From IMG/VR virus record IMGVR_UViG_3300037087_000181, positions 21,257-85,256 of that record: a DNA stretch of 64,000 nucleotides; one strand, given 5' to 3'. Origin of the DNA: a virus. Each line of letters opens with the position of its first letter. Position 1 is the first letter of the stretch. A model generated the notes under the pieces. That model saw only the letters and a program-made list of their open reading frames with translations, was not told the origin of the DNA and did not search any database. The position numbers and the translations under genes are program-made. Of this stretch, positions 15,898 through 52,069 are shown piece after piece.

Positions 15898-15917
15898 GTT
15901 TTATCAAATAAAAGCAT

Positions 15918-22218: not shown

Positions 22219-22890
22219 ATGTGTGATATTCCAACAAAAGTTTGTTCTAAGTGTAAAATAGAGAAGCCTATTGATTGTTTTCATAAGAAAACAGCCAACA
22301 GGGACGGGCATAAGGCGGAATGTAAGGAGTGTATTGCAAAAGACGCCACTGTTTTTTATAAAAAAAACAAAGAAAGGGTTAATAAGGTTAAGAAAATATA
22401 TTATAACGCTCATAAGGAACAGTATTTTAAATATGGGAAAAAAGAAGGAAAGGTTGAGTATCAAAGGGATTATCGTAAAAGACATAAAGAATCATTAAAG
22501 GAATATAGTAGGGAGTATCGTAATAAAAATCGGATTCCCTTGAATGCAAAAAGACTTGCCAAGAAAAAAACAAATATTAATTTTATGCTGGCATGTACGC
22601 TCCGAAATGAGATATACAATGCTGTTAAAAAAAGCAAAAAGATATATAAGATGAAGGAGGTTCTTGGTTGTTCTCTTGATTTCTTAAAACAACACATTGA
22701 ATCTCAGTTCACAGAGGGTATGACATGGGAAAACCACGGAAGGTTTGGCTGGCATATTGATCATGTTCTTCCATGTAAGTCGTTTGACTTATCTGACTCA
22801 GAACAGCAGAAAAGGTGTTTCAATTGGAGTAATTTACAACCGCTTTGGTGGTATGACAATATATCTAAAGGTGCAAAGATAGTCGCATGA
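22219..22890 (+). CDS. HNH-type homing endonuclease, paralog of 16019-16759
   Basis: KVCSKC...DGHKAECKEC; GMTWENHG..GWHIDH..P...NLQPLW..DNISKG. Confidence 0.85.
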   Translation: MCDIPTKVCSKCKIEKPIDCFHKKTANRDGHKAECKECIAKDATVFYKKNKERVNKVKKIYYNAHKEQYFKYGKKEGKVEYQRDYRKRHKESLKEYSREYRNKNRIPLNAKRLAKKKTNINFMLACTLRNEIYNAVKKSKKIYKMKEVLGCSLDFLKQHIESQFTEGMTWENHGRFGWHIDHVLPCKSFDLSDSEQQKRCFNWSNLQPLWWYDNISKGAKIVA

Positions 22891-27767: not shown

Positions 27768-27771
27768 TAAA

Positions 27772-28188
27772 ATGGCAAGTTCAATTCCAAGAGAGAGAAG
27801 AAAAGATTATGCGGTAGCAATGGCAGCTAAAAATTTGAAGATAGCTTTCTTCACAGAGATGGCAGCTTATGATCCATTAACGGCAACGACATATACAGCG
27901 CTTGCCGCTATTTGTACAGAGGTTTCCAGTTCGGGTACTGGCTATACTACGGGTGGTTACGCACTCACTGGTAAGACATCAGCATACTTATCCACTAATG
28001 GGGCGATAATGACGGCATATCTATTAAGTGTTTCTAATGCCACATTTTCAGTGCAATATGGGGTTATTTATGATTCAGCAACAGATAAGATTGAGGGCGT
28101 GCAAGATTGGTACACAACTTATGTTGTAACGAATGGAACGATAACTATTACTTTCGACAATTCAAATGGGGTATTTAATATTCAATAG
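27772..28188 (+). CDS. small tail/baseplate-type structural protein
   Basis: EVSSSGTGYTTGG, GVIYD and GTITI.F..GVF pattern. Confidence 0.55.
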   Translation: MASSIPRERRKDYAVAMAAKNLKIAFFTEMAAYDPLTATTYTALAAICTEVSSSGTGYTTGGYALTGKTSAYLSTNGAIMTAYLLSVSNATFSVQYGVIYDSATDKIEGVQDWYTTYVVTNGTITITFDNSNGVFNIQ

Positions 28189-28193
28189 GTTTA

Positions 28194-30059
28194 ATGAATA
28201 AGACCAATCAATTCAAGACGTGTTCGTTTTTTATGGCGAAGAATGATGTTCTTCACATGCTTATCTTGGATGAGAATGGCACTCCCGTTACTGTTGAATT
28301 GATTGGTGATGAGACTACTCCATCCGCTCCCGGTCAGGTTACTGCTATTGATGCGACAAATATAACCGATTCTGGATTCACGGCAAACTGGTTACTTACA
28401 GAGAACGCAGATGGGTATTATTTTAATCTTGCCACAGACCCCGACATGACACCCCATATAAGCGGATATGAAAATCTTGATGTGGAAAATGTAAATCATG
28501 TTGATATAACAGGACTCACTCCGGGGGTTGTTTATTACTATCAGGTGAGTGCTTATAACAATATAGGAGAGGGTCTTGAATCTAATATTATTTCTACACT
28601 TATTCTTTCGGCTGTATTACTTGAAGACTTAGATGGAAACGAGTATCACACTATTGTCATTGGTAATCAGGAATGGATCGTTGAAAATCTTAAGGTAACG
28701 CAATATGCCGATACATCAATAATCCCGAATGTTACTATAGATGCTGATTGGGCAGCATTAACAGCCATAGATAATAAAGATACTTATGGTGGGATATATA
28801 ACTGGTATGCTGCAACTGATGCAAGAAATATTGCACCCGTAGGTTGGCACGTACCAACATTTGCAGAGGCAGTAGTATTACAATATGCTATTGGAGCTAT
28901 TGATGATCAGGAATATGAAGGGCCGGGTTATGATACAACCATAGGTCAAGTTCTTAGAGAAATAGGCACTACGTATTGGATAACTGACGATGGTACGGAT
29001 ACGAAAGGATTTCATGCCAGAGGATCGGGAAGAAGAAATTATGATAGTGGAAATTTTGAGGCAATTAAGGCTTTATTTGTATTTTGGCTTTCAGATGCTG
29101 GCCCATTAGGTGCATTACAATCTGTTAGAATTAGTGATGATAATACATATTATATAGAAGAACTCACCGCTGGAGTTGGTCAAGAAGCACAAGGTTATTC
29201 AATTCGTCTTATAAAAGATGATTCTACTGATCCGGGAACAGTAACAGGTAATGATGGCAAAGTTTACACAACTGTTAAAATTGGTGATCAAGTATGGATG
29301 GCAGAGAACAGTGCAGAAACAAAATATCAAAACGGAGACTTAGTTACAGTAGTGACAGACGATACAACATGGGCAGCAGAGACAAGCGAAGCAATGTGCT
29401 ATTACGATAATATCGCCTTATCCGATGGGGATGCCTATTGTTGGTATAATAATGATTTAGCAACTTATAAGGCTATTTATGGGGCGCTGTATAATGACTA
29501 TGCTGTTTTAAGTGCAAAAGAACTTGTTTATTTTACAAGAAGTGCAGTACATGAGTTAGGATGGAGGGTAGCTACAAAAACAGATTGGGATGATCTTATC
29601 GCCGTTCTTGACGGATTGACAGTGGCGGGAGGACGGCTAAAAGAAATAGGGACAACACATTGGACTCCCCCTAATACAGGTGCAATAGATTCAGTGGAAT
29701 TTAAAGCCGTTGGCGGTGGATATAGACAAGAAACGGGTACATTTGGTGGCATAAGAGATAGTGCTTTCTTTTGGACGTCTACATCAGAAGGTTTGCTATC
29801 GGGAGTTAATTTTTATCTCAATTATGATACCCAGGATATAAACCATGTAAATACTGTTAAGGGGGCGGGGTATTCAGTTCGCTGCGTAAGAGATATATAT
29901 ACTTCTACTGTTTATGTAATTTACACAGATGGTATAAGTACTTGGCGTAAGGGAGTAAGAAGTCATGCTTTTGTTCTTGATAAGACAATAACTCCGTTAG
30001 GTTTTAGTGGGGTTGAGGATACAGATTGGGTTAATATAAAATCAGTTAAATTGGACTAA
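28194..30059 (+). CDS. FN3 plus tandem FISUMP (Fib_succ_major) domain protein, putative adhesin
   Basis: FN3 motif (GLTPGVVYYYQVSAYN); DLDGNEY..IGNQEW..ENL, YGGIYNW, PVGWHVPT, GYSIRLIKD and GYSVRCVRD. Confidence 0.8.
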   Translation: MNKTNQFKTCSFFMAKNDVLHMLILDENGTPVTVELIGDETTPSAPGQVTAIDATNITDSGFTANWLLTENADGYYFNLATDPDMTPHISGYENLDVENVNHVDITGLTPGVVYYYQVSAYNNIGEGLESNIISTLILSAVLLEDLDGNEYHTIVIGNQEWIVENLKVTQYADTSIIPNVTIDADWAALTAIDNKDTYGGIYNWYAATDARNIAPVGWHVPTFAEAVVLQYAIGAIDDQEYEGPGYDTTIGQVLREIGTTYWITDDGTDTKGFHARGSGRRNYDSGNFEAIKALFVFWLSDAGPLGALQSVRISDDNTYYIEELTAGVGQEAQGYSIRLIKDDSTDPGTVTGNDGKVYTTVKIGDQVWMAENSAETKYQNGDLVTVVTDDTTWAAETSEAMCYYDNIALSDGDAYCWYNNDLATYKAIYGALYNDYAVLSAKELVYFTRSAVHELGWRVATKTDWDDLIAVLDGLTVAGGRLKEIGTTHWTPPNTGAIDSVEFKAVGGGYRQETGTFGGIRDSAFFWTSTSEGLLSGVNFYLNYDTQDINHVNTVKGAGYSVRCVRDIYTSTVYVIYTDGISTWRKGVRSHAFVLDKTITPLGFSGVEDTDWVNIKSVKLD

Positions 30060-30061
30060 TA

Positions 30062-30367
30062 ATGGCAGTTCAATATATTTATTATACCTCAGGGACAATG
30101 GTTGAATACACGGATGGTGTGGATGTGTTTAGGGATGGTTCTTTAGGGGGTTCATACATAGTGGAGGTTCTTGATGGTGCTTCTTGGGATGATTTGGAAA
30201 GTATTGATGCCGAGGGTGCAATAGGTATAGATACATTCCGTGATGGTGTTCGTGGGGGAGCATACGTTATAGATAAAACACTTACTCCAATAGGATTTGC
30301 AGGAATAGAATCATTAGATGATGGGATTACAGGTGATTGGATAAATTTACGAATATCAGATATATAA
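30062..30367 (+). CDS. hypothetical protein sharing a C-terminal module with 28194-30059
   Basis: RDGVRGGAYVIDKTLTPIGF..DWINL versus RKGVRSHAFVLDKTITPLGF..DWVNI. Confidence 0.7.
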   Translation: MAVQYIYYTSGTMVEYTDGVDVFRDGSLGGSYIVEVLDGASWDDLESIDAEGAIGIDTFRDGVRGGAYVIDKTLTPIGFAGIESLDDGITGDWINLRISDI

Positions 30368-33300
30368 TGAAAAAGATTTTAACAATTTTAATTGCACTTG
30401 CCATAGCCTTGGTGAGTTGTGCACAACAGACTTTTAATGTAAATGTGGTAATTCAAAAGGCCACACCTACATTATCTTTTAATGGAAGTGGAGGGATCAT
30501 TGACTTTCTTAATGGAAGTGCCCACATAACGCTTACACAGAGTTTGAATACGTTAACTCTTGCGGGTGGAAACTTATCACTTGGAACAAATAACCTCCTT
30601 ACAACGGGTTTTATTGGAGTTACGGGGGCAAGAATAACAAAAGGATGGTTTATTGATGGAGAGTTCTCTAACATGCCTACTGTTGCGGGAAACTCATTAA
30701 CATCATATTTCGCTACTTCGGCACAGCTATCGGCAATAACGGCAACATCATTGGGGCTTGGAAATGTTAATAATGTTAGTGTTGCGACTATTCTTACAAG
30801 TCCTGCACTCACAGGAACCCCAACAGCACCCACGGCAACAGTTGGTACTAACACCACACAGGTAGCTACAACTGCCTTCGTGTTGGCTAATGGAGGTGGC
30901 GGAGGAGGTGCTGGCACATGGGGAAGTATAACAGGAACCCTTTCTTTACAGTCAGACCTTGAAACCGCACTGAATTTAAAACTTAATACCAATGGGAGTG
31001 CTGCAAGTCTGACAAGTTTTCCTACGCTAAACCAAAATACGACAGGAAGTGCCGCTACGTTAACTACACCAAGGGCAATTTATGGAAATAATTTCAATGG
31101 TTCGGTTGCCTTAACACAAATAATCGCATCTACTTATGGCGGAACGGGTAACGGATTTACTAAATTTACAGGGGCAACACAAACAGAGAAAACCTACACA
31201 TTACCTGATGTAAGTACTACTATCTTGACTTCTAATTCTCCAGTGACGGTAGCACAAGGGGGAACTGGACGAGTAACGTCAACAATTGCATACGGATTAT
31301 TGGCTGCGGGGACAACGGCAACGGGGGTACAACAGACACTCGCCACCGGATCAGGTGGACAGATACTTCGTAGTGGTGGTAGTGGAGCGTTACCTTCATA
31401 TTCAACAGCAACCTATCCGGCAGTGGCAGGAACAGCACGTAAAATGGTGGTTTCTGATGGTACTAATCTTGTCATGTCTACCGAGACTTATGATACACCG
31501 GGGGCAGTAGGAAATATGCTTATGTCTGATGGTACAAATCAGGTTAGCACCACGCCCGTTGACATCGCAACTGTTATGTCTCAATATTATATTGATGCTA
31601 CAAGTTCTATACAGGGACAGTTAAATGCACTTTCCACACGAATTACGGCACTCGAAGGTAATACTCCTTCATATCCAAATTATTATGTTGCAAATGCCGG
31701 ATCAGATGCAGCAGATGGGTTAACCCCTGCAACTGCATGGCAGACAATTTCAAAAATAAATGGATTAACTATATTATCGGGAACAGGGATTAATTTTAAC
31801 AAAGGGGATACGTGGCATGAGATATTGACAGTTCCTTCTTCTGGTATTTCAGGCAACCCCATTGTATTTGGTTCTTACGGTACAGGGAATAAGCCTATCA
31901 TTGATGGATCAGATATTGTTTCTACATGGACGGCTGATAATAGTGATGTAGAAACAGGAGGGACATTTGTTTCAGGATTAGAGACTGAGACAAGTGCTTT
32001 TACAACTGAATGGACAACAAAGACAGTAGCAAATAGTAATACTATGACTGTTTCTTCAACTGTAAAAAATCATGGTACTAATTCTGCACTAATTACTTTC
32101 AATGGTACTGGACAGGAAGCGTATGCTTATAAGGATCTTTCTAACCAAACAGAAATGAATTTTAGGTTTTATTTCTATTTGGCTTCAGATTTTGCAATGC
32201 ACGCAAATGGTAGTTCTATTGATCTTGGTTTGATGTATGATACTGGTAATGGTTGGTTATTTGGTGTGGTTTTGGAAGCAGATGCGGGGAGTACAACATC
32301 CTTTCATTTGAAAGGAGATAGGATAAAACCAACAGATGCCATTGTTTACACTGGAGCTAATGGTTCGATTTCAAGAGGCGCTTGGCATTATGTTGAAATA
32401 GAGTTCGATAGAGGAACTACAAATGGAGGATGGCAGATGTGGTTGGATGGTAATTCTGTCGGAAGTGATTTTACATTAAATACAATTATATATAATCCAA
32501 ACAGGGTTTATATAGGAGATGCTGGTGAATTGGGTTATCCTGCAAGTACAGCAAAAATATATTTTGATGATATAAAGGTAAGTACTTCTGTTATCGGGGC
32601 ATTCCCGGCGGGAGTGGCTAATGTTTATGATGCTACAATAGCAGCAACAACAGTTCAGGTTTTCAGAGACGGGTTAAGAGCAACCAAGGGATCATCAAAA
32701 GCGGCACTTAATGATCATGAGTGGTTTTGCAGTGGTACAACATTATCATATAGAGATGATTCAGGAACACCACAAGGGGCAGGATATGTTATTGCAGCCT
32801 CGGTAAGAAATAGTTGTATTGAAGTTTCAAAAGGATTTGCACAAACAGATTATATTACTATTGATGGTCTGGATATAAGAAATTCAAATTTGAATGGAAT
32901 ATTTTTCCCTGCAACTTCAACTGGTGCGATTATAAAAAACTGTGATGTGAAGTATAATTATAATGATGGTATTCGTTCATCGGCAGGCGAAGTAGCATCT
33001 AATGTATTAGTAACAACTTGTAATTTAAGTTGGAATGGAGGTGGTGGTGTTGATATAGTTACTCCAAGTCATAACTGGACGATTAGTTATAATAATGTTT
33101 TTAGAAACTGTCAATACAATGATAGTTATCAAAATCACAATTGGAATGCAGGAATACACACATGGTGCGAGGATGCTACAGTTAAATCAATCCAGATAAT
33201 TCACAATACCATTTATTCTAATGGGAAATTACCTAATAATACTTATGTAAGTATATCATCTGGCAGGGGAATACATTTTGATACTGTTGAAGAAACAAAT

Positions 33301-33936
33301 TATACGGATGGATCATTTGTCGGATATAATTTTATTTATGATAATAATCAAGTGGGAATACTTCTTGAACACGCTAGTTATCATACTGTTGCTTACAATC
33401 TTGTTTATAATAATATTGGAGCATACGGTATAGCAGTTTCAGATTATTCTACTCTTTCAGAAGCAAGCTATAATAAAGTTTATAACAATGTATGTTATGG
33501 TAATCTTACAGGTATTGTCATACAGGGCACAAGTAGTTTAACTGCAAACAGATGTAGGGGGAACATTGTAAAGAATAATATTTCTTTCGGTAATTCAAAT
33601 AATCAATTAGGATGTTATTATGGTGGTGAGAATGATGGTACGATGGGTAGTGGCAACGTGTACCAGAATAACGCATTGGGCGTAGAAGGCACTGGTTTTA
33701 TTCAGTGGGGTAGCGGTGTGAATAAAAACACTTATGCTGCTTGGGCTTCGGCCTATGGTAGTTCTACAAATTCAATTCAAACCGATCCTTTACTTGTAAA
33801 TTCCACAAGTTTAAATTTTCAGTTACAAACAGGATCACCCTGTATAAATGCAGGAGTAAATGTGGGATTAACAACCGATTTCTTAGGAAATCCTATAATT
33901 GGACTTCCCGATATTGGAGCATACGAAAAACAATAA
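30367..33936 (+). CDS. tail fibre-like protein with signal peptide, lectin-like insert and right-handed beta-helix
   Basis: MKKILTILIALAIALVSCAQQ; SPALTGTPTAPT and GGTG fibre motifs; YYVANAGSD..DGLTP; C-terminal SPCINAG...PDIGAYE (choice-of-anchor Q-like). Confidence 0.75.
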   Translation: MKKILTILIALAIALVSCAQQTFNVNVVIQKATPTLSFNGSGGIIDFLNGSAHITLTQSLNTLTLAGGNLSLGTNNLLTTGFIGVTGARITKGWFIDGEFSNMPTVAGNSLTSYFATSAQLSAITATSLGLGNVNNVSVATILTSPALTGTPTAPTATVGTNTTQVATTAFVLANGGGGGGAGTWGSITGTLSLQSDLETALNLKLNTNGSAASLTSFPTLNQNTTGSAATLTTPRAIYGNNFNGSVALTQIIASTYGGTGNGFTKFTGATQTEKTYTLPDVSTTILTSNSPVTVAQGGTGRVTSTIAYGLLAAGTTATGVQQTLATGSGGQILRSGGSGALPSYSTATYPAVAGTARKMVVSDGTNLVMSTETYDTPGAVGNMLMSDGTNQVSTTPVDIATVMSQYYIDATSSIQGQLNALSTRITALEGNTPSYPNYYVANAGSDAADGLTPATAWQTISKINGLTILSGTGINFNKGDTWHEILTVPSSGISGNPIVFGSYGTGNKPIIDGSDIVSTWTADNSDVETGGTFVSGLETETSAFTTEWTTKTVANSNTMTVSSTVKNHGTNSALITFNGTGQEAYAYKDLSNQTEMNFRFYFYLASDFAMHANGSSIDLGLMYDTGNGWLFGVVLEADAGSTTSFHLKGDRIKPTDAIVYTGANGSISRGAWHYVEIEFDRGTTNGGWQMWLDGNSVGSDFTLNTIIYNPNRVYIGDAGELGYPASTAKIYFDDIKVSTSVIGAFPAGVANVYDATIAATTVQVFRDGLRATKGSSKAALNDHEWFCSGTTLSYRDDSGTPQGAGYVIAASVRNSCIEVSKGFAQTDYITIDGLDIRNSNLNGIFFPATSTGAIIKNCDVKYNYNDGIRSSAGEVASNVLVTTCNLSWNGGGGVDIVTPSHNWTISYNNVFRNCQYNDSYQNHNWNAGIHTWCEDATVKSIQIIHNTIYSNGKLPNNTYVSISSGRGIHFDTVEETNYTDGSFVGYNFIYDNNQVGILLEHASYHTVAYNLVYNNIGAYGIAVSDYSTLSEASYNKVYNNVCYGNLTGIVIQGTSSLTANRCRGNIVKNNISFGNSNNQLGCYYGGENDGTMGSGNVYQNNALGVEGTGFIQWGSGVNKNTYAAWASAYGSSTNSIQTDPLLVNSTSLNFQLQTGSPCINAGVNVGLTTDFLGNPIIGLPDIGAYEKQ

Positions 33937-33948
33937 AATAATATAACA

Positions 33949-36246
33949 GTGAAAAAACTATTTTTTCTTTTAACATTTTTAATAGTCACCCTGTCACTTA
34001 AGTCAACGACTTATTACATTGATCCGGCGGGCAATAACAGTCATACAGGATTGATTAGTTCTCCGTGGCTAACTTTAGCCTATGCCTGTGCACATACAAC
34101 ATCTGGCGATATTATTCATGTCAATGCCGGGACATTTACCGAGACAGTTCAATGTACTAAGGCTGTCGGTGTAAGTATCGAGGGTGTTGGAGTGACTTCT
34201 CATATAATAAGTCAGGTTGTCTTTACACGTTCTGGCGACTTAACAGGAGCTGCCATCATGTGTTCCAGCGCATCAGAAGGTACAAATGACAATAGTCATA
34301 TAAGCGGGATTTGGTTAGATGGTAATTACTATGCAGGCAGCACGGGATCGTCTTCAGCAACAGGGAATGACGGTATTTTTGTACAAAGAAGAAGTAATGT
34401 CAAAATATTTAATTGTACAATATCGGGATTCTATCTTAATGGGATTGCACTTCACGGATCAACTATTTATGCACAACCATCAATCTATGCTACAGGAAAT
34501 GAAATACATGATTGCATAATAACAGATAATGGTAATGAAGATTCTACATGGGGAGGTGGGGGCAATATTGAGATTGGAGGGCAGGGTGACGGAACGCTTA
34601 TACATGATAATACAATAAGTTGCATAGGCAGGCAAAATCATGGGTTAATCAATGGGAATAATCTTTCGGGAGCCTACCATAATGAGGGAGTAAAATTTTA
34701 TAATAATCTCTGTTATAAGAATGAGCAAGAATCTGTATGGAGTTTCCATATTGAGATGTGGAATACTGATGGTGGCATGGAAGCATATGGTAATACCTTT
34801 AACGGAGGAGATACAGGGATAGATATTGCTGGAGATTGGAGTACTAAAGGCAGTTACGCTTATTCATGGTATGTCCACGATAATCTATTTACCGGTAATT
34901 ATTTAACGAGTCATGAGAAAAAGATTGGTATTGATATCGAAAACGGAACACAACAAGATATTTGGATTTATCGTAATCATTTTTATCAGAAACATGCTCC
35001 CTTTAACATAACTAATGGTGATGATGCAAGTGTAGTTATACAAAGGGTTTGGATTGCTTATAATATTATGGAGAGTTGTGGATATGGTGTACCGGGTGGC
35101 TATCAGGTAATTAACAATATTCACCTACCAGGTGACATGACTCTTACAGATTTTTATTTCTGTAATAATGTAATTATAGGCGAAGCTGATGCTTACTATA
35201 TTGGGTTTGATATTGACAATGCTGGTACAATAACCAATATGTATTTTAGAAATAACATAATTGTTAATTTTTTACATTCTTTCGGATGGTTGTATGTGGC
35301 TAATGCAGGAAGTATGAATGGATTGTATGTTAATAATAATATTCAATATAATAATTCAAATAGTAATGATCCCTTATTAACAGGCAATTCTGTTAGTAAT
35401 TATTCATATACGAATGCCACTAAGACAGCACCACCATTTGTTTCATCGACTGATTTTCATCTTACGGCTGCAAGAAATGGAGTTGCCGTATCATTTCCTA
35501 TTACATGGGCTGATTATGATGGCAATACATTAGCGAGTCCTCCCGAAATGGGTGTTTATGAATATGGGACAATAAGTGCACCCACCGTTACAACAACCGC
35601 AGCATCAAATATAGCACAAACAACTACAACCAGCGGGGGAAACGTAACAGCCGATGGCGGTGCAACGGTTACGGCAAGAGGGGTTTGTTGGGGAACGTCG
35701 GCTAATCCTATTACTTCTGGTAGTCATACTTCAGATGGAACTGGTACGGGAACATTCGCCAGTTCAATTATAGGTTTAACGGCTTATACTATATATCATG
35801 TGCGTGCTTATGCAACAAATAGTCAGGGTATTTCTTATGGGTCTGATGTGCAGTTTACAACATCTGCCGCAATAACCATACCCGTAGTTACCACGACAGC
35901 AATAACAAGTATAACAATTACTACGGCAACAAGTGGAGGAACGATTTCATCGGATGGAGGATCAACGGTTACGGCAAAGGGTGTTTGCTGGGGGATATCG
36001 ACTAACCCCACCACATCTGGCAATCATACTTCAGATATTAGTGGTACCAGTACTTTTACAAGTGCCATAACGGGATTAACGGCAGGAACGGTTTATCATG
36101 TAAGAGCATATGCCTCTAACGGTGTAGGGACAGCCTATGGATCAGACGTACGGTTTACAAGTGCGGTAGTGACGTCTATATCTCCCGTAACACATAATGG
36201 AGTTCCTGTGATATCGGGGGGTAAGATATTAATTATAACAAGATGA
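33949..36246 (+). CDS. secreted right-handed beta-helix protein with two C-terminal FN3-like repeats
   Basis: Signal peptide MKKLFFLLTFLIVTLSLKS; YYIDPAGNN..G..SSPW; repeats TVTARGVCW...YHVRAYA. Confidence 0.75.
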   Translation: MKKLFFLLTFLIVTLSLKSTTYYIDPAGNNSHTGLISSPWLTLAYACAHTTSGDIIHVNAGTFTETVQCTKAVGVSIEGVGVTSHIISQVVFTRSGDLTGAAIMCSSASEGTNDNSHISGIWLDGNYYAGSTGSSSATGNDGIFVQRRSNVKIFNCTISGFYLNGIALHGSTIYAQPSIYATGNEIHDCIITDNGNEDSTWGGGGNIEIGGQGDGTLIHDNTISCIGRQNHGLINGNNLSGAYHNEGVKFYNNLCYKNEQESVWSFHIEMWNTDGGMEAYGNTFNGGDTGIDIAGDWSTKGSYAYSWYVHDNLFTGNYLTSHEKKIGIDIENGTQQDIWIYRNHFYQKHAPFNITNGDDASVVIQRVWIAYNIMESCGYGVPGGYQVINNIHLPGDMTLTDFYFCNNVIIGEADAYYIGFDIDNAGTITNMYFRNNIIVNFLHSFGWLYVANAGSMNGLYVNNNIQYNNSNSNDPLLTGNSVSNYSYTNATKTAPPFVSSTDFHLTAARNGVAVSFPITWADYDGNTLASPPEMGVYEYGTISAPTVTTTAASNIAQTTTTSGGNVTADGGATVTARGVCWGTSANPITSGSHTSDGTGTGTFASSIIGLTAYTIYHVRAYATNSQGISYGSDVQFTTSAAITIPVVTTTAITSITITTATSGGTISSDGGSTVTAKGVCWGISTNPTTSGNHTSDISGTSTFTSAITGLTAGTVYHVRAYASNGVGTAYGSDVRFTSAVVTSISPVTHNGVPVISGGKILIITR

Positions 36247-36500
36247 AGATAATTTTATTTATATTATTTTCATTAGGAGTTTTTGCTCCACAGAGTGGTA
36301 GAGCGTGGATCATGTACCCTAATCCCGCTAAAGATCATGTAACAATAGAGATGACAGATGGGGTAATGCCTAAGTATGTGAAATTCTATGATATAAATGG
36401 GAAAGTGGTTTTAAGGGTGGCAACAGAGGGAAGATTAATTATTAGAATAAATTTTCATCTCATGTCGGGTAGGTATATTGTAAATCTGGAGGATAACTAA
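36243..36500 (+). CDS. stand-alone T9SS type-A C-terminal sorting domain with signal peptide
   Basis: YPNPAKDHVTI, FYDINGKVV and SGRYIV motifs after a hydrophobic N-terminus. Confidence 0.75.
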   Translation: MKIILFILFSLGVFAPQSGRAWIMYPNPAKDHVTIEMTDGVMPKYVKFYDINGKVVLRVATEGRLIIRINFHLMSGRYIVNLEDN

Positions 36501-37093
36501 TGTCACGTCAAATTGATCTCATAGCTTCAAGCAATGGTGAACACTACGTTTTATTTGGATTTAATGCCAATGAGTTAAGTTCCTTTAGTATAATGTTTTG
36601 GATCACACATTATGGTGTAAGAGCTTTGGATTGGGTACAGGCATTAAGCCTCGGATTTTGTTCTTTTCTAGGTGGCGATATATGGGTTCATAATTCCACG
36701 GAAGTGCCAAGGAATAATTTATTCGGACAACAGAGAAATTCAGAGGTCGGAATAGTCGCTAATCAAAATGCAAATGAGATAAAGATTCTTGATGCTATCG
36801 GGATACATAGTGATGGGGCTTGGTCGGTGGATTCTATTACCATCCCAAAAACGCTTAATCAGCCCAATGGTATGTATAGCATGATCCCTAAAGAACGATT
36901 TAAGAAAAGAGAAGGCGTTTGGCAAGCAGAATTTTTGAGAAATATGAAAACAACTTCAGGAGCGGCATTGGCAATAGAAGCCATTAAGGGAGAAGTCCTT
37001 CGTGGATATAGTGCATTTTTGGTGTTAAAGAATACGGATAATACTGAGGTTAAGCTTTTTAAGGTTAATCTTGGAATGACCAAATCGAGGTAA
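36500..37093 (+). CDS. protein resembling the C-terminal part of crAss-like tail stabilisation proteins
   Basis: SF.GG.IWVHN...RNNLFG, FKKREG.W.A.FLRN and GEVLRG. Confidence 0.6.
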   Translation: MSRQIDLIASSNGEHYVLFGFNANELSSFSIMFWITHYGVRALDWVQALSLGFCSFLGGDIWVHNSTEVPRNNLFGQQRNSEVGIVANQNANEIKILDAIGIHSDGAWSVDSITIPKTLNQPNGMYSMIPKERFKKREGVWQAEFLRNMKTTSGAALAIEAIKGEVLRGYSAFLVLKNTDNTEVKLFKVNLGMTKSR

Positions 37094-37106
37094 TGTGCAA
37101 AATGAG

Positions 37107-37114
37107 TAACTTTG
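37107..37114 (+). promoter_or_regulatory. -7 promoter element TAACTTTG
   Basis: 15 nt before ATG 37130. Confidence 0.7.
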
Positions 37115-37129
37115 TGACAATTTAATAAT

Positions 37130-37885
37130 ATGGCAGGAATAGGTGATATAGCAGGCAGTACAGTAGGCGGTGCGGGGGCTGGTGCTGCATTGGGCCCCAT
37201 AGGGGCAGCAATAGGTGGTGGTCTTGGACTAATTAAGGGGATTTTTGGTGCGGTACAAACTGCCCAAGGTACAAGACAATTAAATTCCCTACTTAATAAT
37301 AGACCACAATACCAGATATCGCAAGGCTATCAGGACGCATTTAAAACATATCAGAGCATGGCAAATTCTCAATTGCCGGGATATGACATAATGAAAGGTC
37401 AGATAGATCAAAGTGGTGCAAGGACACAAGCCAATCTTGAAAGAGGGGCAATGAGTTCCAATCAACTCATGAGTGGTGCATTAAGTTCTCAGGATAAAGA
37501 GTTAGATGCTATCAAGAATCTTGGGTTAATGTCGGCACAATATCGTCAACAGCAACAGCAGAATCTCGCAGGGGCGCAGCAAATGATGGGTGGTCAGCAA
37601 GATAAGGCGTTTGATTATAATGTTAATCAACCTTGGGAGATAAGGGCAAATATGGCAGCAGGGAAGGCTGGTGTGGGTCAACAGAATCTCTTTAGTGGGT
37701 TACAGGATATAGGATCATCTCTGCAAAATTTTGCGGGAACAAATGCCTACATGAAGGTATTCCAAGGTATGCAAGGACAAGGTGGTGGACAATCATCGCA
37801 GGGAACTAATGCTTTTGGTATTCCTAATAATACTCCCATTGCTTCCGATCCGTTCTCTAATCATAATCCTTCAATAAGTATGTAA
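37130..37885 (+). CDS. putative ejection/cargo protein
   Basis: Gly/Ala-rich hydrophobic N-terminus (GAALGPIGAAIGG); Q-rich helices. Confidence 0.65.
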   Translation: MAGIGDIAGSTVGGAGAGAALGPIGAAIGGGLGLIKGIFGAVQTAQGTRQLNSLLNNRPQYQISQGYQDAFKTYQSMANSQLPGYDIMKGQIDQSGARTQANLERGAMSSNQLMSGALSSQDKELDAIKNLGLMSAQYRQQQQQNLAGAQQMMGGQQDKAFDYNVNQPWEIRANMAAGKAGVGQQNLFSGLQDIGSSLQNFAGTNAYMKVFQGMQGQGGGQSSQGTNAFGIPNNTPIASDPFSNHNPSISM

Positions 37886-39243
37886 TGGAATTTAACAACT
37901 CATTTACGGGTAAAAATATAATAGCACCTCTCCCGTCAAGCGAGGGTTTACAGAGGTCACAGGAGAATATGGATAACATGATTCTTGGGGCTGAGAAATT
38001 AAAAACAGAAATTTATCAAAGAAACGCTGAACAGTTTCAGAAAGCATCTAATGTCCCTCCTGAATTTGTACTTGCCGATTCAGCACAGAAAACACAGATG
38101 GGCTTGATCAATGCATTTAATCAGAAATGGGGTAAGGCATTCCAACAGTCAGGTGGTAATCTTTCGGATGAGCAGAAGATGCAGATGACAACAGACAAAA
38201 ATGTTCTACTCATGCAACAGCAGCAGATGCAATCAAGCATGGTTAGGGCAATGAAAGATAGAGAAGATGTTCAGAAAGATGTACAGGGGAATTTAGACCA
38301 TGAGGATTTTAACAATAGGTGGAATGATTACCTAAAAACAGGAAATTATGATCAGTCTCCATTACTTCCTGCATCAATAAGTCCAAATGATTATTTCAAT
38401 AAAGATGCTAATAAGTTTAAGGGCAATCCTGCTGATGTGACAACGGTTGAAAATATTGGTGGTGTTCCTCAAAAGGTAACAAGAACTGCAAGTGGCACTG
38501 AAGCACAGGGCAGAACATGGGTACAGGACAGGCTTCATAATGATGACAGATTTGCAAGGGGTGTTATTCAAGATTTTCAGAACCTAAAAAACACAAATCC
38601 TTCGTTATATAAGCAGTATCTTGACACGGATATCAATGGAACCGTATCACCAGATGGGGCAAGGGCATCTCAATCGGTAAATAGCAATCCTATTTTAAAA
38701 TATGCTCAAGATAATTATTGGCAAAATGCATTAAAACTGGGTGAAAGTAAACCAGTAACGCTTAAAATGGGTAGTGCAACAAAGTTTGATTATAGTAAAG
38801 TAAATGCTACTAATAACCAAAACGGATTATATACACCACAGGACGGTTTCGCTGCCAAAGACGCAACTGGGAAGGTATTTAACTTACCCTCTTATCAGGA
38901 CTTAGGTCAGAAAAAGGTAGTCACCGTAGATCAGAATATTAAACAGATATACACCAAAGATAAAAACGGGAACGAAACACTTGTTCCTTTTAATCAATCA
39001 GCAAAATTTGATATTACCGGGTATAGTAAAGACAAAGATCAGATTCTTATAACTCTTGATAGCGGTACAACTGGCGATGGTGATTATAGTAAGGGAGATC
39101 AGCTTGTAGTACCAGCAGCAGATTTTGATGATGTGTTGAAAAATAAATATGGAATCTTTAGGGGACAACAAACTACAACAGCCACTACAAACTCTATTTT
39201 AGAGAGAGCCAAGCAACTTAATTCAAAGCCATCTAAAAAATAA
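37885..39243 (+). CDS. putative ejection/cargo protein
   Basis: Q/N/D-rich; lies between the small and large cargo genes. Confidence 0.55.
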   Translation: MEFNNSFTGKNIIAPLPSSEGLQRSQENMDNMILGAEKLKTEIYQRNAEQFQKASNVPPEFVLADSAQKTQMGLINAFNQKWGKAFQQSGGNLSDEQKMQMTTDKNVLLMQQQQMQSSMVRAMKDREDVQKDVQGNLDHEDFNNRWNDYLKTGNYDQSPLLPASISPNDYFNKDANKFKGNPADVTTVENIGGVPQKVTRTASGTEAQGRTWVQDRLHNDDRFARGVIQDFQNLKNTNPSLYKQYLDTDINGTVSPDGARASQSVNSNPILKYAQDNYWQNALKLGESKPVTLKMGSATKFDYSKVNATNNQNGLYTPQDGFAAKDATGKVFNLPSYQDLGQKKVVTVDQNIKQIYTKDKNGNETLVPFNQSAKFDITGYSKDKDQILITLDSGTTGDGDYSKGDQLVVPAADFDDVLKNKYGIFRGQQTTTATTNSILERAKQLNSKPSKK

Positions 39244-48056: not shown

Positions 48057-49829
48057 ATGCCCGGAGCAGGAGCAGCAGCTTGGAGTCTTGGGAGGAATAA
48101 CTTATCAGGCGGTGTAGCATGGACTCCCTCATCTTTAGTTGTTGAAAATGCAGGATCAAATGAGGTTCTTATAACATGGCCGTCTAAAAAGACAATTCTT
48201 ATAAGTGATTTTACTATTGTGGGAATCACAGCGACAGTTTTAGGTGTGTCGTGGGATCCGGGGGTAGGAAATGTTTGTACTTTGATATTAAGTGTTCCGG
48301 TTGTTTATGGAGATGTTTTTAGTGTTGTTTATAAAGGAAAGAGTTATCCAGTTACCAACAATGTTGTCGCATGGACACCCCTAAGTGTACCAACTAAGAT
48401 TATTGGTTGGTACAAAGAGTCAGAAGAAAGTGGAGGACAGCAACCAAATAAGATGGATGGCGGTGCTACTCATCTGACGGTTGTTAGTGGTTCCGGATTA
48501 AATAAAGTCTATACACTTCCTGCCGGGTGGGTTGCTTATGATACTGATAATGCTTGGTGGAAAACTGATGCGAGTTTAAGTACAACTGACGGTAATAGAC
48601 TAATTGCTTATGATTTTGCCCGGACAATTGTAAAATATGATAATACTTCACCTTATGTTTTAAGAGAGATAATAATTCTTTCACGGGCACTTTCAACTGA
48701 CGAAATGAATCATTTGAGAGATTATGCTCAACTTTCTATTTGGTGGAGTGGTGTTGTTTCTGGTTATGGGAACCTGAAGGGCAATAAACCAATAGCACAA
48801 CAATACGTATGGACACCAGAAACAATTACTGTCCCGACAATTTCAACCAAAACAATAGAACAAGCATCACCTTCTAATATAGTTATTACTTTTGACAATA
48901 CACTAAATACTTCTTATATTCCGGCAACTACGGATTATGCAGTTTTAGTAAATTTAGTTGCACGAGGAGTTATTACTGTGGCGGTTGCAGGAGCAGTAAA
49001 TACATTAACTCTTGCCAGTGCGTGTACTCTAGGAGATGTAATAACGGTTACATATACGAAATCAGTTACTAATTATTTAAGAGATAATACAACGGGAGGT
49101 GCAGTTGCAACATTTTCCGGACAATCAATTACAAATAATATCATTTACCCTTTAATCCTTGAGCATCAAACAGGCGGCGTCAATGATACTTCGGCATGGT
49201 ATGATTTTAGAGATTTAACAACAATCACAAAAGATGGCAGTAATCACGTAACAAGAATAAATAATAAATTACTTGTTTCTGAAAGTGATTTATCAATATA
49301 TAAAGGGAATAGTAGGGTATGGAGTGCTGATGGTGTGACATTTAACGGGCTTGTAGATGGTAGTTTAATTACAGATGATCATCTCCGTAGTGCTGCTTTT
49401 GAACTCAATCAGCCGGTTTTTTATTATTTTGTTGTTAAACCATTAAGGTGGACACTTTATGACACTTTTTTCGATGGATATGCAAATAATCAGGGACAAA
49501 TACAGGAAAATGCTGTTACTCCCAATATAAGGGCGCGCGCGGGAAGTGCTTCGACTACAACCGGAATCACTCTAAATGCGTGGAATATTATCAGGGTATT
49601 ATTTAACGGAGCAAATAGTAAACTTATAGTTAATGAAGGAGTACCCGTGACAGGAGATTTTGGTGCTGCAAATCCGGGAGGTATAATAGTTGGGGCATCA
49701 ATGTATTTGGGTAATGCTATTTGTCCTAGTAATATTTTAGTTGCGGAAATGATTGTAAGGAAAGTTGCTGATTCAGTAAGTGATGAGGGAATGATTTATA
49801 ACTATCTCAAGACAAAATACTCAGTATGA
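48057..49829 (+). CDS. tail/adhesin protein with SwmB-like Ig repeats and C-terminal ConA/LamG-like domain
   Basis: IVITFDNTL...DVITVTY..NYLRD; WYDFRDLTTIT...IYNYLKTKY. Confidence 0.6.
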   Translation: MPGAGAAAWSLGRNNLSGGVAWTPSSLVVENAGSNEVLITWPSKKTILISDFTIVGITATVLGVSWDPGVGNVCTLILSVPVVYGDVFSVVYKGKSYPVTNNVVAWTPLSVPTKIIGWYKESEESGGQQPNKMDGGATHLTVVSGSGLNKVYTLPAGWVAYDTDNAWWKTDASLSTTDGNRLIAYDFARTIVKYDNTSPYVLREIIILSRALSTDEMNHLRDYAQLSIWWSGVVSGYGNLKGNKPIAQQYVWTPETITVPTISTKTIEQASPSNIVITFDNTLNTSYIPATTDYAVLVNLVARGVITVAVAGAVNTLTLASACTLGDVITVTYTKSVTNYLRDNTTGGAVATFSGQSITNNIIYPLILEHQTGGVNDTSAWYDFRDLTTITKDGSNHVTRINNKLLVSESDLSIYKGNSRVWSADGVTFNGLVDGSLITDDHLRSAAFELNQPVFYYFVVKPLRWTLYDTFFDGYANNQGQIQENAVTPNIRARAGSASTTTGITLNAWNIIRVLFNGANSKLIVNEGVPVTGDFGAANPGGIIVGASMYLGNAICPSNILVAEMIVRKVADSVSDEGMIYNYLKTKYSV

Positions 49830-52069
49830 AGAAATTAGTAATATTTTCGTTATTTATATTATTGTCCGTTTGCGGATATGGTCAAACCACCATAACGGCA
49901 GGGATGACTCAATTACAGTTTTTTACTGCAATAAATGCGAACTTTAGTTCAATAAATATCACATCTGGCAGTCAGGCAACCCTGACAACTATTAGTGCTT
50001 CTACTTCCTATACTGTTATTAATGGCAATTTTGATGCTCTTAATGCCGTTGTTCCTACTGCGATAACTATTTTTTATCTCTATCCCGGAATGTCCGGGAC
50101 TGCTTATATTAATGCACTTAATACAAATTTTATAAATTTAGTAGCTTCATTTAATTCAGTCCTTACTCAAAGTAATACAATTTATGTAAGTAATTCAGGT
50201 AATGACGGAACAGGCAATGGGACAATAATAACTCCTTATGCAACTTTAGTAAAAGCAACGACAGTATTAACTGATAACACTAAAATACTTATTGCAAAAG
50301 GATCAACATTTATTAATGATAAACTTGACCTATCCGGTAAGACAAATATATTTGTAGATTCTTACGGCAATGGTATTGCACCAATTTTGACAGCATTAAA
50401 ATCAGTTACAGGATGGACTGATGAAGGAGATAATATTTGGAGCAAACAAGATAATAATTTTCCATCTGAAATAACGAATGTTTTTATTGGGGGTACAAAA
50501 GCAATATTGGCTAGAAAAACAATAAGCACGGCAACAGCGGGGAATCAAACGACATTAACCGATTCGGGTCTTGAAGATGCCGATGGGTTTTGGAATAATG
50601 CAGAACTTTATATTGATTATAATACTTTTCTATTTGGCATGTCAAGGGTGAGCGCTTATGCAAGTAAAACATTTACCATACCGGGGATGGATTTAGACCC
50701 GGAGCATATATATAATCCATCGGGTTTATTGTTTCCAGTTGTGGCAGGATATACATATTACGTACAAAATCACAGGGGATGCTTAACAACTCAAAATCAA
50801 TATGCTTATAATAATTCAACCAAAACACTTTATGTTTATTCTACAACTCAGCCATCTGGAGTTACGGTAACTTATGGAGATGATTGCATTTATGGTAATA
50901 TATGTAAAAATATAACAATTCAAAATTTAGATTTTGAAAGCACAGATCAATGTGATATTCAAATTAAAAACAGTTCGTATATCAATATTCTTAATATTAC
51001 TTCTAATTATGCTGGTTATTATCCTATATTATTGAAAACATGTCAGGTCTGCAAAGTAGATGGGTGTACGATGACTGATCAAAATTCTGATGGGATTATG
51101 GTAATGTATTGTAATCAGGTTATTTTACAAAACAATATTATTAATAAATGTGGCTATACAACAGGAAGTGAAAGATATTTATATGGCATATTTCCCGGAC
51201 AAAACGGGAATGGTATTGGGAGTAAAGGAACAACTTATTTAAGTATTTTATATAATGAAATTTATAATACAAATTATTCTGGCATTTGCTTGATGTATGC
51301 AACTAATCCATTGATTCAATATAATTATGTGCATGATGTTAATTTAATACATTTTGACGGTGGTGCCATTTATATGTCATATTCTACAAATGGACATATT
51401 TTAAATAATATTTGCACAAACGGTACTGTTTATAACTGGAATGCAGGAATATACATTGATTTAAGTAGTTTAGATAATGAAATTGATCATAATTTTGTGA
51501 CGGGATATACACAAAATGTGATGATTGGTTATGAAGATCAACAGGTTAATTTTCACGATAATGTTTTATTTTCTACGAATAGTACAAACAATATTTGGTT
51601 CACTTTATATGGCAGTAGTGCAAATAATACAATTAATAATAATCTTTTTGTGGCACAAGCTCCCGCAACGTGTAGTATTGGAATTTATACTGCTTTAACA
51701 AATACTGAGACAATTACGAACAATAAATATTACTATCCTTTCGGGAAAGCCGGAACAGGTGGAAATAATACAATGTTCAAACTAACTACTTCATGGCTGA
51801 CACTTGCTCAATGGATTGCTGATGAAAACACACGTGTATGGGGAAGAACGGCATTGAATGAATTGGAGATAACTCCTTCGATGTATGCTGGAAGTGCAAA
51901 ACCAGAAACAGATTTCCTCATTTATCTAATTAACCCCGCAAAAACCGTGAGGATAGTTCAGGCAGCAGAATTGCCTTATAGTGACTATGTTGATATGGAT
52001 GGGGTTGCGCAGACATATCCTTTTACAATGCAACCATATACAAGTAAAGTTTTAGTAAGACCAAATTAA
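49826..52069 (+). CDS. secreted right-handed beta-helix protein
   Basis: Signal peptide MKKLVIFSLFILLSVCGYGQ; IYVSNSGND..GT...PY; DGGAIY and GIYID motifs. Confidence 0.75.
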   Translation: MKKLVIFSLFILLSVCGYGQTTITAGMTQLQFFTAINANFSSINITSGSQATLTTISASTSYTVINGNFDALNAVVPTAITIFYLYPGMSGTAYINALNTNFINLVASFNSVLTQSNTIYVSNSGNDGTGNGTIITPYATLVKATTVLTDNTKILIAKGSTFINDKLDLSGKTNIFVDSYGNGIAPILTALKSVTGWTDEGDNIWSKQDNNFPSEITNVFIGGTKAILARKTISTATAGNQTTLTDSGLEDADGFWNNAELYIDYNTFLFGMSRVSAYASKTFTIPGMDLDPEHIYNPSGLLFPVVAGYTYYVQNHRGCLTTQNQYAYNNSTKTLYVYSTTQPSGVTVTYGDDCIYGNICKNITIQNLDFESTDQCDIQIKNSSYINILNITSNYAGYYPILLKTCQVCKVDGCTMTDQNSDGIMVMYCNQVILQNNIINKCGYTTGSERYLYGIFPGQNGNGIGSKGTTYLSILYNEIYNTNYSGICLMYATNPLIQYNYVHDVNLIHFDGGAIYMSYSTNGHILNNICTNGTVYNWNAGIYIDLSSLDNEIDHNFVTGYTQNVMIGYEDQQVNFHDNVLFSTNSTNNIWFTLYGSSANNTINNNLFVAQAPATCSIGIYTALTNTETITNNKYYYPFGKAGTGGNNTMFKLTTSWLTLAQWIADENTRVWGRTALNELEITPSMYAGSAKPETDFLIYLINPAKTVRIVQAAELPYSDYVDMDGVAQTYPFTMQPYTSKVLVRPN

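What the first reader, a model, noticed from the sequence alone, without database searches (positions are those of the whole stretch)
30367..36500. Tail-module proteins with Sec signal peptides beside a stand-alone T9SS sorting domain
Inside the tail cassette, the 30367 fibre/beta-helix protein (MKKILTILIALAIALVSCA-QQ) and the 33949 beta-helix/FN3 protein carry classic Bacteroidota signal peptides. The next gene overlaps by ATGA and is only a signal peptide plus a type IX secretion CTD (YPNP...YDINGK...SGRYIV), with no passenger domain. T9SS CTDs normally end a large cargo protein, and cytoplasmically assembled tailspikes do not need signal peptides. Inference: the phage exports polysaccharide-degrading or adhesin proteins through host Sec/T9SS. 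The free CTD may be an in-trans adaptor, or a decoy that jams T9SS (receptor masking or superinfection exclusion). Alternatively, spikes mature outside the cytoplasm. This is my best protein-level candidate for a new system.
Basis: partly seen in the sequence, partly recalled or inferred. Interest (0 to 1): 0.8.

Follow-up and report, generated by a model that had tools for sequence, protein, structure and literature searches.

The report
Phage exported proteins plus incomplete T9SS tag
A crAss-like phage from peat encodes, among its tail genes, two large sugar-binding or sugar-cutting proteins with bacterial export signals, followed by a tiny exported protein that is a type IX secretion tag missing its last, essential strand; this hints at an untested way for a phage to use or disturb its host's secretion machine.

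Summary
ORFs 30367-33936 (1189 aa), 33949-36246 (765 aa) and 36243-36500 (85 aa) exist. Both gene overlaps (ATGA, TAATG) are identical in independent peat-metagenome assemblies. The 85-aa ORF passes the curated T9SS CTD models. It holds strands s1-s6 only and stops 12 residues early, without the s7 strand that published mutagenesis shows is needed for export. One 75%-identical relative has the same start, stop and hydrophobic N-terminus. Signal peptides are conserved across homologs. Fibre-module relatives obey the Bacteroidota "Q-rule", also in 7 of 8 signal-bearing phage fibre proteins from other viral contigs. Bacterial homologs of the 765-aa protein end in a CTD or a membrane anchor; phage-borne ones, including this one, end in a short hairpin tail that as a group resembles the CTD's s6-s7 hairpin. 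Best reading (about 0.4): a Sec-exported glycan-recognition cassette whose mini-CTD acts by strand complementation, on the neighbour's tail or on host cargo. A vestigial fragment (about 0.3) is not excluded. Phage-encoded CTDs and bacterial CTD-only mini-proteins already exist, so this is a new variant. Earlier scan notes describe similar fibre-plus-tagged-partner cassettes on other DNA.

The parts
30367..33936 (+). 1189-aa protein: signal peptide (MKKILTILIALAIALVSCA|QQ), phage tail-fibre shaft repeats (about residues 115-430), then a ~750-aa module with a right-handed beta-helix that ends in a 'choice-of-anchor Q' motif. No CTD and no hairpin tail.
   Evidence: ORF. PF13229 at 826-972 and NF041518 at 1148-1188. 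Module homologs: P0126/P0128 at 60-66% identity from residue 1; P0123/P0125 for residues 435-1187. N-termini of homologs all show a signal peptide followed by Gln. Shaft repeat found in more than 100 viral contigs.
30367..30423 (+). Predicted Sec signal peptide of the 1189-aa protein. Cleavage after SCA would expose Gln (Bacteroidota Q-rule).
   Evidence: Q-rule literature listed (PMC5837995).
33949..36246 (+). 765-aa protein: signal peptide (MKKLFFLLTFLIVTLSLKS|TTYY), beta-helix (about 20-540), two FN3-like modules (about 545-740), short C-terminal hairpin tail.
   Evidence: ORF. 154 homologs, many with a fused PF18962 CTD. Homologs with the same C-terminal modules end naturally without a CTD (P0008 at 50% identity and 98% coverage). 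Weak fn3 hit.
36187..36243 (+). C-terminal hairpin tail of the 765-aa protein (VTHNGVPVISGGKILIITR). It sits where bacterial homologs carry a CTD or a membrane anchor.
   Evidence: As a group such tails resemble the CTD s6-s7 hairpin. This tail alone is not significant (16th percentile of controls).
36243..36500 (+). 85-aa gene: hydrophobic signal-like N-terminus plus T9SS type A CTD core (strands s1-s6), lacking s7.
36243..36305 (+). Signal-like segment of the 85-aa protein (MKIILFILFSLGVFAPQSGRA). Hydrophobicity is conserved in P0001 although 5 of 13 h-region residues differ. The cleavage site is uncertain.
36306..36497 (+). CTD core: six predicted beta-strands at residues 22-25, 32-37, 45-49, 55-60, 66-70 and 79-83.
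   Evidence: model; fold search; alignment.
36500..37093 (+). Context: 197-aa protein with a crAss muzzle C-terminal domain. Its start overlaps the stop of the 85-aa gene (TAATG).
   Evidence: PF25729 at 47.8 bits; phrog_38031; sequence.
28194..30059 (+). Context: 621-aa protein of the same cassette with FN3 and two FISUMP (Fib_succ_major) domains, no signal peptide.
49826..52069 (+). Related: a second signal-peptide beta-helix protein (747 aa) further along the late region.

Best explanation
This is a cassette of glycan-recognition or depolymerase proteins, built from Bacteroidota surface-protein modules and phage tail-fibre parts. It sits inside the late structural operon of a crAss-like peat phage. 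Its host is probably a T9SS-bearing member of the Bacteroidota. The 1189-aa and 765-aa proteins are made with working Sec signal peptides, so they cross the inner membrane late in infection rather than joining virions in the cytoplasm. This step is inferred from sequence. The 85-aa protein is also exported. It folds as the s1-s6 core of a type A T9SS sorting domain and lacks strand s7. This is shown by profiles and a model. Because s7 is required for export, the protein cannot be an ordinary tag. I propose that it works by beta-strand complementation: its open core takes an s7-like strand from another protein. This step is inferred. The most likely donor is the C-terminal hairpin tail of the co-translated 765-aa protein. 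That would give the tag-less enzyme a two-piece sorting domain for passage through SprA-PorV to the cell surface. The other possible donors are host cargo CTDs, whose capture would block host type IX secretion.
For: Signal peptides are conserved across diverged homologs of the 765-aa family and of the fibre module, where all four homologs put Gln right after the predicted cleavage site. In other viral contigs, 8 of 50 fibre-repeat proteins have such signals and 7 of those 8 read A|Q. The CTD identity of the 85-aa ORF rests on curated HMMs and on fold neighbours 8glk_D, 5hfs_A, 7pq4 and 8gl6_D. The missing s7 is shown. P0001 keeps the same start, stop and hydrophobic N-terminus at 75% identity. 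Only about 4% of neutral simulations do so. Genes are translationally coupled in one operon. Published work shows that s1-s6 of RgpB CTD accepts s7 from another molecule, and that the s6-s7 hairpin is the primary T9SS signal. In the 765 family, bacterial members end in a CTD or a TM anchor while viral members end in a hairpin tail. These tails are shifted towards an s6-s7 profile (p about 9e-8), and one scores like a true CTD. A bacterial cassette of a tag-less FISUMP protein followed by a 133-aa signal-plus-CTD gene exists. SprA is present in MAGs that carry the family.
Against: No experiment and no complex model supports the pairing. The window's own tail is not individually s7-like. L002, a complete 42-kb phage, has a tail-bearing signal-peptide beta-helix protein but no CTD gene, so the tail does not need a mini-CTD. 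Only two sequences of the 85-aa gene are known, and no population variants were seen. The cleavage site of the 85-aa signal is unclear: Pro follows the best A-x-A-like site, and P0001 has Glu at -1 of the alternative site. The genes sit among virion genes, which would also fit a virion role.
Confidence: 0.4

Rival explanations
1. The 85-aa gene is a vestige. It would be a truncated copy of a bacterial signal-plus-CTD mini-gene, or of a cargo gene's end, brought in with the cassette and cut at the cassette's right edge. The frame stays open only because ribosomes must cross it to re-initiate on the overlapping muzzle-C gene. The product would have no role of its own.
For: The truncation coincides with the junction to the next gene (TAATG). 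CTD fragments occur elsewhere, such as the 49-aa piece in L014 and the frameshifted CTD in L151. The fibre cassette is mosaic. About 20% of neutral simulations keep the frame open. No homolog other than P0001 was found among 5.8 billion clusters.
Against: A leftover domain would not be expected to carry its own hydrophobic, Lys-led N-terminus, nor to keep it hydrophobic while 5 of 13 residues change. Start, stop and length are the same at 75% identity, with no indel. The core is modelled as a compact fold.
Confidence: 0.3
2. The free CTD core is a decoy aimed at the translocon itself. It would bind in the SprA-PorV pore and jam host type IX secretion. That would strip T9SS-dependent surface receptors and give superinfection exclusion or protect progeny phage.
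For: CTDs bind tightly inside the SprA pore, with about 40% of their surface buried. Phage resistance in Flavobacterium maps to T9SS and gliding genes. The phage carries an integrase and other exported small proteins. Small exclusion lipoproteins encoded beside receptor-binding genes are known in T5-like phages (own knowledge).
Against: The s6-s7 hairpin is reported as the primary recognition signal and half of it is missing. The gene sits in the late operon and has no lysogeny-type promoter of its own.
Confidence: 0.12
3. The two large proteins are ordinary virion tail fibres or tailspikes. Their hydrophobic N-termini would be unused relics of host-derived genes, or the fibres would mature in the periplasm and attach to particles only at lysis. 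The mini-CTD would be an Ig-like accessory or decoration protein.
For: Position between virion genes in one operon. The shaft repeats are typical of phage fibre proteins. Other phages carry the same beta-helix without a signal peptide or embedded in long fibres (L008, L006, L010). Hairpin tails are restricted to viral contigs and could be docking elements.
Against: The signal peptides are conserved, with Gln at +1 in 12 of 13 fibre-type proteins examined. That is hard to explain unless signal peptidase I cleaves them outside the cytoplasm. No N-terminal virion-attachment domain is present. There is no precedent for periplasmic fibre maturation (own knowledge).
Confidence: 0.15

Closest known systems
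Type A T9SS C-terminal sorting domains of Bacteroidota cargo (PF18962/TIGR04183; RgpB CTD 5ag8/7pq4, 5hfs, CTDs bound in SprA-PorV 8glk/8gl6)
   Same: Sequence profile above curated cut-offs; YPNP, D-x-x-G and G-x-Y motifs; the same beta-sandwich core by model and fold search.
   Different: No cargo in front. Strand s7 with its conserved Lys is absent. The domain has its own signal-like N-terminus. It is encoded by a phage.
Published phage-encoded T9SS CTD proteins: 'Cryophage' variable genes (Bellas 2020, PMC7468147) and crAss-like cluster 2 sorting-domain proteins (de Jonge 2019, PMC6949934)
   Same: Bacteroidota phages carrying host-type sorting domains on glycan-active or glycan-binding proteins near structural genes. 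Here, viral record G006 likewise has two complete cargo genes of the same beta-helix family.
   Different: Those are full cargo proteins with fused, apparently complete CTDs. Here the large proteins have no CTD, and the CTD is separate and truncated.
Bacterial CTD-only mini-proteins, e.g. the 133-aa gene in L154 that follows a tag-less FISUMP protein, and ESM Atlas clusters of 110-124-aa CTD-only proteins
   Same: Signal peptide plus CTD with little or no passenger. In L154 it is encoded directly after an exported protein that lacks a CTD.
   Different: The bacterial examples keep a complete CTD including s7 and have a short linker. Their function is uncharacterised as far as I could find.
Strand-swapped RgpB CTD dimer, and donor-strand complementation in chaperone-usher pili
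   Same: An Ig-like s1-s6 core completed by a strand from another polypeptide.
   Different: For RgpB this is a property of a complete CTD seen in crystals and in solution. Here the core is encoded without s7, so complementation would be obligatory. It is not shown.
Signal-peptide proteins that obey the Q-rule in Porphyromonas gingivalis prophages (Matrishin 2023, PMC10367356)
   Same: Phage genes adapted to the Bacteroidota Sec/SPI pathway, with Gln after the cleavage site.
   Different: Those are small proteins of unknown function in temperate siphoviruses, not fibre-like or beta-helix proteins in a tail module.

Membership tests
T9SS type A CTD (PF18962 / TIGR04183) | Profile match above the curated cut-off | tested here: met
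   38.4 bits against 27 and 30.7 bits against 23. P0001 scores 38.0 bits.
T9SS type A CTD (PF18962 / TIGR04183) | Complete seven-stranded Ig-like sandwich, including C-terminal strand s7 with the conserved Lys ('motif C-t.') | tested here: not met
   Matches end at 64/75, 61/72 and 72/84. The ORF stops 12 residues early. The model has six strands. The requirement for s7 comes from PMC11285876 and PMC4804311.
T9SS type A CTD (PF18962 / TIGR04183) | Placed at the C-terminus of a cargo protein that has an N-terminal Sec signal | tested here: not met
   A signal-like N-terminus is present, but there is no cargo between it and the CTD.
T9SS type A CTD (PF18962 / TIGR04183) | Host possesses a T9SS that recognises it | tested here: inconclusive
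   The host is unknown. Three Bacteroidales MAGs that carry the 765-aa family all encode SprA.
Sec/SPI signal peptides of Bacteroidota (Q-rule) | n-, h- and c-regions, with Gln at +1 of the cleavage site | tested here: inconclusive
   Rule-based screen is positive for all three. Gln at +1 for the 1189-aa protein and its homologs. Not so for the 765-aa family (A|T). Unclear for the 85-aa ORF. SignalP was not available.
Right-handed beta-helix (pectate-lyase-like) proteins | PF13229-type repeats | tested here: met
   1189-aa protein: PF13229 at 31 bits. The 765-aa protein has no direct Pfam hit, but many of its homologs carry PF13229.
Virion tail fibre or tailspike | N-terminal virion-attachment domain and presence in particles | tested here: inconclusive
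   Shaft repeats are shared with phage fibre proteins, but the N-terminus is a signal peptide rather than an adaptor. Particle content cannot be tested here.
crAss-like phage (Crassvirales) | Hallmark virion genes | tested here: met
   Muzzle C-terminal domain PF25729 at 47.8 bits. Terminase, portal and virion-protein PHROGs in crAss-like order. Complete 85-kb record. The RNA polymerase and capsid genes were not examined.

The most novel reading that the evidence does not exclude
A two-piece type IX sorting signal. The phage would split the CTD between two exported proteins: an s1-s6 core of 85 aa, and an s6-s7-like hairpin at the end of a tag-less enzyme. The signal would assemble in the periplasm by donor-strand complementation. 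More broadly, the short hairpin tails of phage-borne signal-peptide beta-helix proteins would be minimal T9SS signals. Alternatively, the same open core captures the s7 strands of host cargo and shuts down host type IX secretion.
Probability: 0.2. Interest if true: 0.85.

Novelty: new variant of a known kind. Interest (0 to 1): 0.58.

Why it matters
How the T9SS recognises its cargo is still being worked out. The s6-s7 hairpin and strand swapping have been proposed as the recognition principle but never seen used in trans. A natural, conserved, exported CTD core without s7 offers a ready-made probe for that question, and it sits next to a tag-less enzyme with a hairpin tail. The finding also shows that Sec-exported, fibre-like and beta-helix proteins recur in phages of Bacteroidota. 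That bears on how these phages remodel or degrade host surface glycans, on superinfection exclusion, and on annotating 'tail fibre' genes in crAss-like phages. If the 85-aa gene is only a vestige, the locus is still a clear example of module exchange between host T9SS cargo and phage receptor-binding cassettes.

Tried and rejected
1. Frameshift fusion of the 765-aa and 85-aa genes. The CTD frame has a TAA six codons before its ATG, no slippery site was seen by eye, and close homologs end naturally at the same tail. Rejected.
2. Read-through of the TAA stop to restore s7 ('CHVKLIS'). It adds only 2.4 bits and the match reaches 67/75. The extra strand is modelled at pLDDT 47-69. The genome has no suppressor tRNA, and TAA is its main stop. 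Rejected as a mechanism; a relic of s7 is possible.
3. Assembly error. Rejected.
4. Close relatives. None in INPHARED. None by single-protein scans of IMG/VR. The metagenome scan did not return the P0001 contig.
6. A CTD alignment was too variable for a viral scan.
7. No RNA holder listed among sequencing runs. No variants in the 85-aa ORF, so no dN/dS.
8. The signal-peptide fibre module was not found in 301 sampled Bacteroidota genomes at E<=1e-10, in a search with no positive control.
9. An ungapped s7 matrix gave only a group-level signal.
10. PHROGs gave nothing for the three focal proteins.
11. No sequence match in the PDB for the two large proteins or the 197-aa protein.
Full report
**What and where.** The window is bases 21257-85256 of an 85,256-bp IMG/VR virus record that CheckV rates complete. 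It is a crAss-like phage. Large terminase (6362-8974), portal (9028-11406) and a virion structural protein (22887-27767) have PHROG matches. The gene at 36500-37093 carries the crAss muzzle C-terminal domain, PF25729, at 47.8 bits. Genes from 22887 to 39243 lie on one strand with gaps of 4, 5, 2, -1, 12, -4, -1, 36 and -1 nt. Promoter- and terminator-like sites do not exceed chance. The focal genes are therefore part of one late, translationally coupled operon. Sequencing runs that hold the locus are all peat metagenomes.

**Check of the observation.** The three ORFs are as described. The ATGA overlap at 36243 and the TAATG overlap at 36500 are in the sequence. Contigs from other samples span them with zero differences. 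The 765-aa protein is on record from six contigs. A frameshift fusion is unlikely. The CTD frame is closed by TAA six codons before its ATG. Homologs that share the same C-terminal modules (P0008 at 50% identity and 98% coverage; P0014, P0024, P0032) end at an equivalent short tail without a CTD. The 85-aa ORF passes both curated CTD models. Its AlphaFold model is confident over residues 21-85. Its nearest PDB neighbours are T9SS CTDs: 8glk_D, 5hfs_A, 7pq4 and 8gl6_D, with Foldseek probability 0.98-1.0 and E-values of 0.02-0.05, as expected for a 65-residue domain.

The CTD is incomplete. All profile matches stop short: 64/75, 61/72 and 72/84 of my own HMM. The pairwise match to the 75-residue chain 8glk_D ends at its residue 63. 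In an alignment with 22 CTDs from fetched loci, both the window ORF and its only homolog end 12 residues before the canonical C-terminus. They lack the '...K-[ILV]-[ILV]-x-x' strand. The model has six strands. Published work shows that this last strand, s7, and its conserved Lys are needed for export. Removing two C-terminal residues of RgpB traps it in the periplasm, and replacing the last six residues of PorU disables the system (PMC11285876). The last 22 residues (s6-s7) are described as the primary T9SS signal and suffice to export GFP. The s1-s6 core of the RgpB CTD can take s7 from a second molecule in a strand-swapped dimer (PMC4804311).

**Read-through.** Reading through the TAA gives 'CHVKLIS*'. 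This adds only 2.4 bits and forms a low-confidence seventh strand. The genome has one tRNA (Met) and no suppressor, and TAA is the commonest stop. I reject programmed read-through.

**Is the 85-aa gene real?** A search of 5.8 billion protein clusters found one homolog, P0001 (85 aa, 75% identity). It has the same start, stop and length. Five of 13 h-region residues differ, yet all remain hydrophobic and uncharged. In neutral simulations brought to the same divergence, 20% of sequences stay open and 4% also keep such an h-region. Indels were ignored, which makes this conservative. That is modest evidence for selection on an exported product. The cleavage site is uncertain. Pro follows the best A-x-A-like site, and the alternative GRA|W site reads QRE|W in P0001.

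**Signal peptides on the large proteins.**
- Nearly all close homologs of the 765-aa protein start with a signal peptide that ends just before a conserved T/D-Y-Y motif.
- The same holds in four other viral contigs (L002, L005, L007, L009). L008 lacks the signal, and in L006 and L010 the beta-helix is embedded in long fibre proteins.
- The 1189-aa protein is a fusion. Residues 1-430 are a signal peptide plus fibre shaft. Homologs P0126, P0128, P0134 and P0208 align from residue 1, and all have Gln right after the predicted cleavage site.
- The shaft repeat occurs in more than 100 viral contigs. Of 50 such phage fibre proteins, 8 begin with a signal peptide, and 7 of those 8 read A|Q.
- Gln at +1 is the Bacteroidota 'Q-rule' of signal peptidase I substrates (PMC5837995, listed). 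It has been noted for P. gingivalis prophage genes (PMC10367356).
- This pattern is hard to explain unless the peptides are really cleaved outside the cytoplasm.
- The fibre module was not found in 301 sampled Bacteroidota genomes, in a search without a positive control.
- The window holds seven signal-bearing ORFs in all, including a second beta-helix protein at 49826-52069 and two lipoprotein-like genes.

**Origin and the choice of C-terminal anchor.** The 765-aa family has 154 hits. By my HMM, 45 have a signal peptide and a CTD, and 43 have a signal peptide and no CTD. In bacterial genome contigs (Bacteroidales from fen and soil, Ferruginibacter, Chitinophagaceae), members end either in a CTD or in a TM helix with a basic tail. 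In viral contigs and in the window they end in a short tandem hairpin-like tail, such as 'NGKIVINDGKIVVIEQ', 'KSNGSFVKSNGKFNITY' or here 'HNGVPVISGGKILIITR'. Against a gapped profile of the CTD s6-s7 hairpin, 27 such tails score higher than 539 control C-termini. Medians are 1.0 for tails, -1.1 for controls and 8.8 for real CTDs (p about 9e-8). About 8-10 of the 27 fall in the controls' top 5%, and the P0014/P0024 tail scores 10.1, above every control. The window's own tail is unremarkable, at the 16th percentile of controls. An ungapped s7 matrix gave the same picture.

**Precedent.**
- Phage-encoded CTDs are published: crAss-like 'cluster 2' sorting-domain proteins (PMC6949934) and three variable 'Cryophage' genes (PMC7468147).
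- Here, a 260-kb viral record has two complete cargo genes of the same beta-helix family, side by side.
- Stand-alone CTDs are rare. Among about 3,200 ORFs from my loci, the window's is the only short signal-plus-CTD gene.
- In 26 genomes of the order that includes the fen Bacteroidales MAG, about 3% of the listed CTD matches lie in short frames.
- Of four such regions fetched, one is genuine. L154 encodes a 133-aa signal (VSA|Q) plus linker plus complete CTD, directly after an exported FISUMP protein with no CTD. One is a frameshifted cargo gene (L151). Two could not be resolved.
- The ESM Atlas holds clusters of 110-124-aa CTD-only proteins with 56-222 members; some may be fragments.
- Earlier notes of this scan on other DNA describe fibre-plus-small-tagged-partner cassettes and a crAss-like 'half CTD' lipoprotein. 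I used them as leads only.

**Mechanism.**
- Shown: gene structure, CTD core without s7, conservation in one relative, conserved signal peptides, and anchor choice by genomic context.
- Inferred: Sec export of all three proteins late in infection.
- Proposed: the s1-s6 core acts by strand complementation.
- The donor I favour is the tail of the co-translated 765-aa protein, which would give a two-piece tag. Capture of host cargo s7 strands is the alternative.
- Plausible hosts have a T9SS: SprA is present in three MAGs that carry the family.
- Phage resistance in Flavobacterium maps to T9SS and gliding genes, so interference would pay.
- Against the proposal: no complex could be modelled; the window's tail is not individually s7-like; and L002 has a tail-bearing protein but no CTD gene.
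- A vestigial fragment kept open by translational coupling remains a serious rival.

**Verdict.** This is a new variant of known things (phage CTD proteins and bacterial mini-CTDs), with a testable and potentially informative twist.

Noticed in passing
window 57400-58311 (with 55949-56413 and 56685-57395): A tyrosine integrase (PF00589, PF13102) follows two small exported genes: a 154-aa signal-peptide protein and a 236-aa lipoprotein with a FISUMP domain. This crAss-like phage may be temperate, with lysogenic-conversion-type surface genes.
   Followed up: partly
C-termini of P0003-P0122 and P0125; L002:9956-11959, L009:1432-3216, L053:1054-2868: Phage-borne signal-peptide beta-helix proteins end in a short tandem 'x-[NSG]-G-K-hydrophobic-hydrophobic' hairpin tail. 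It sits exactly where bacterial homologs carry a T9SS CTD or a TM anchor. It could be a minimal sorting signal or a virion-docking element.
   Followed up: partly
L072-L076, L079, L085, L091, L105 (IMG/VR contigs): Eight of 50 phage tail-fibre-repeat proteins begin with a classic signal peptide, and seven have Gln right after the cleavage site. Exported fibre-like proteins seem to be a recurring, undescribed feature of phages of Bacteroidota.
   Followed up: partly
L154 (G322:C118) 759-2324, minus strand: A bacterial two-gene cassette: a 338-aa signal-peptide FISUMP protein without a CTD, followed by a 133-aa protein that is a signal peptide, a short linker and a complete CTD.
   Followed up: partly
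window 30062-30367 and 28194-30059: The 101-aa ORF is homologous to the last ~40 residues of the preceding 621-aa FN3/FISUMP protein (49% over 43 aa, E=2e-12). A small duplicated C-terminal module sits between cassette genes.
   Followed up: partly
window 22887-27767 and 36500-37093: Other first-stage notes propose that the muzzle gene is split around this cassette. I only confirmed the muzzle C-domain hit on the 197-aa protein. The truncated end of the CTD coincides with that junction.
   Followed up: no
window 15896-16759: An endonuclease VII / HNH-like gene (phrog_1035) sits among the head genes. It may be a homing endonuclease.
   Followed up: no
L003 4269-11227 (IMG/VR record of 259,840 bp): A jumbo viral contig carries two adjacent complete T9SS cargo genes (633 aa and 1685 aa; signal peptide, beta-helix family, fused CTD).
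   Followed up: partly
L016, L019, L021-L023, L026, L046 (contigs binned as Saccharibacteria MAGs): Members of the same beta-helix family on these contigs end in what looks like a peptidoglycan-binding domain (judged by eye from the C-terminal sequence) rather than a CTD or a hairpin. The contigs may be mis-binned phages or show another choice of anchor.
   Followed up: no
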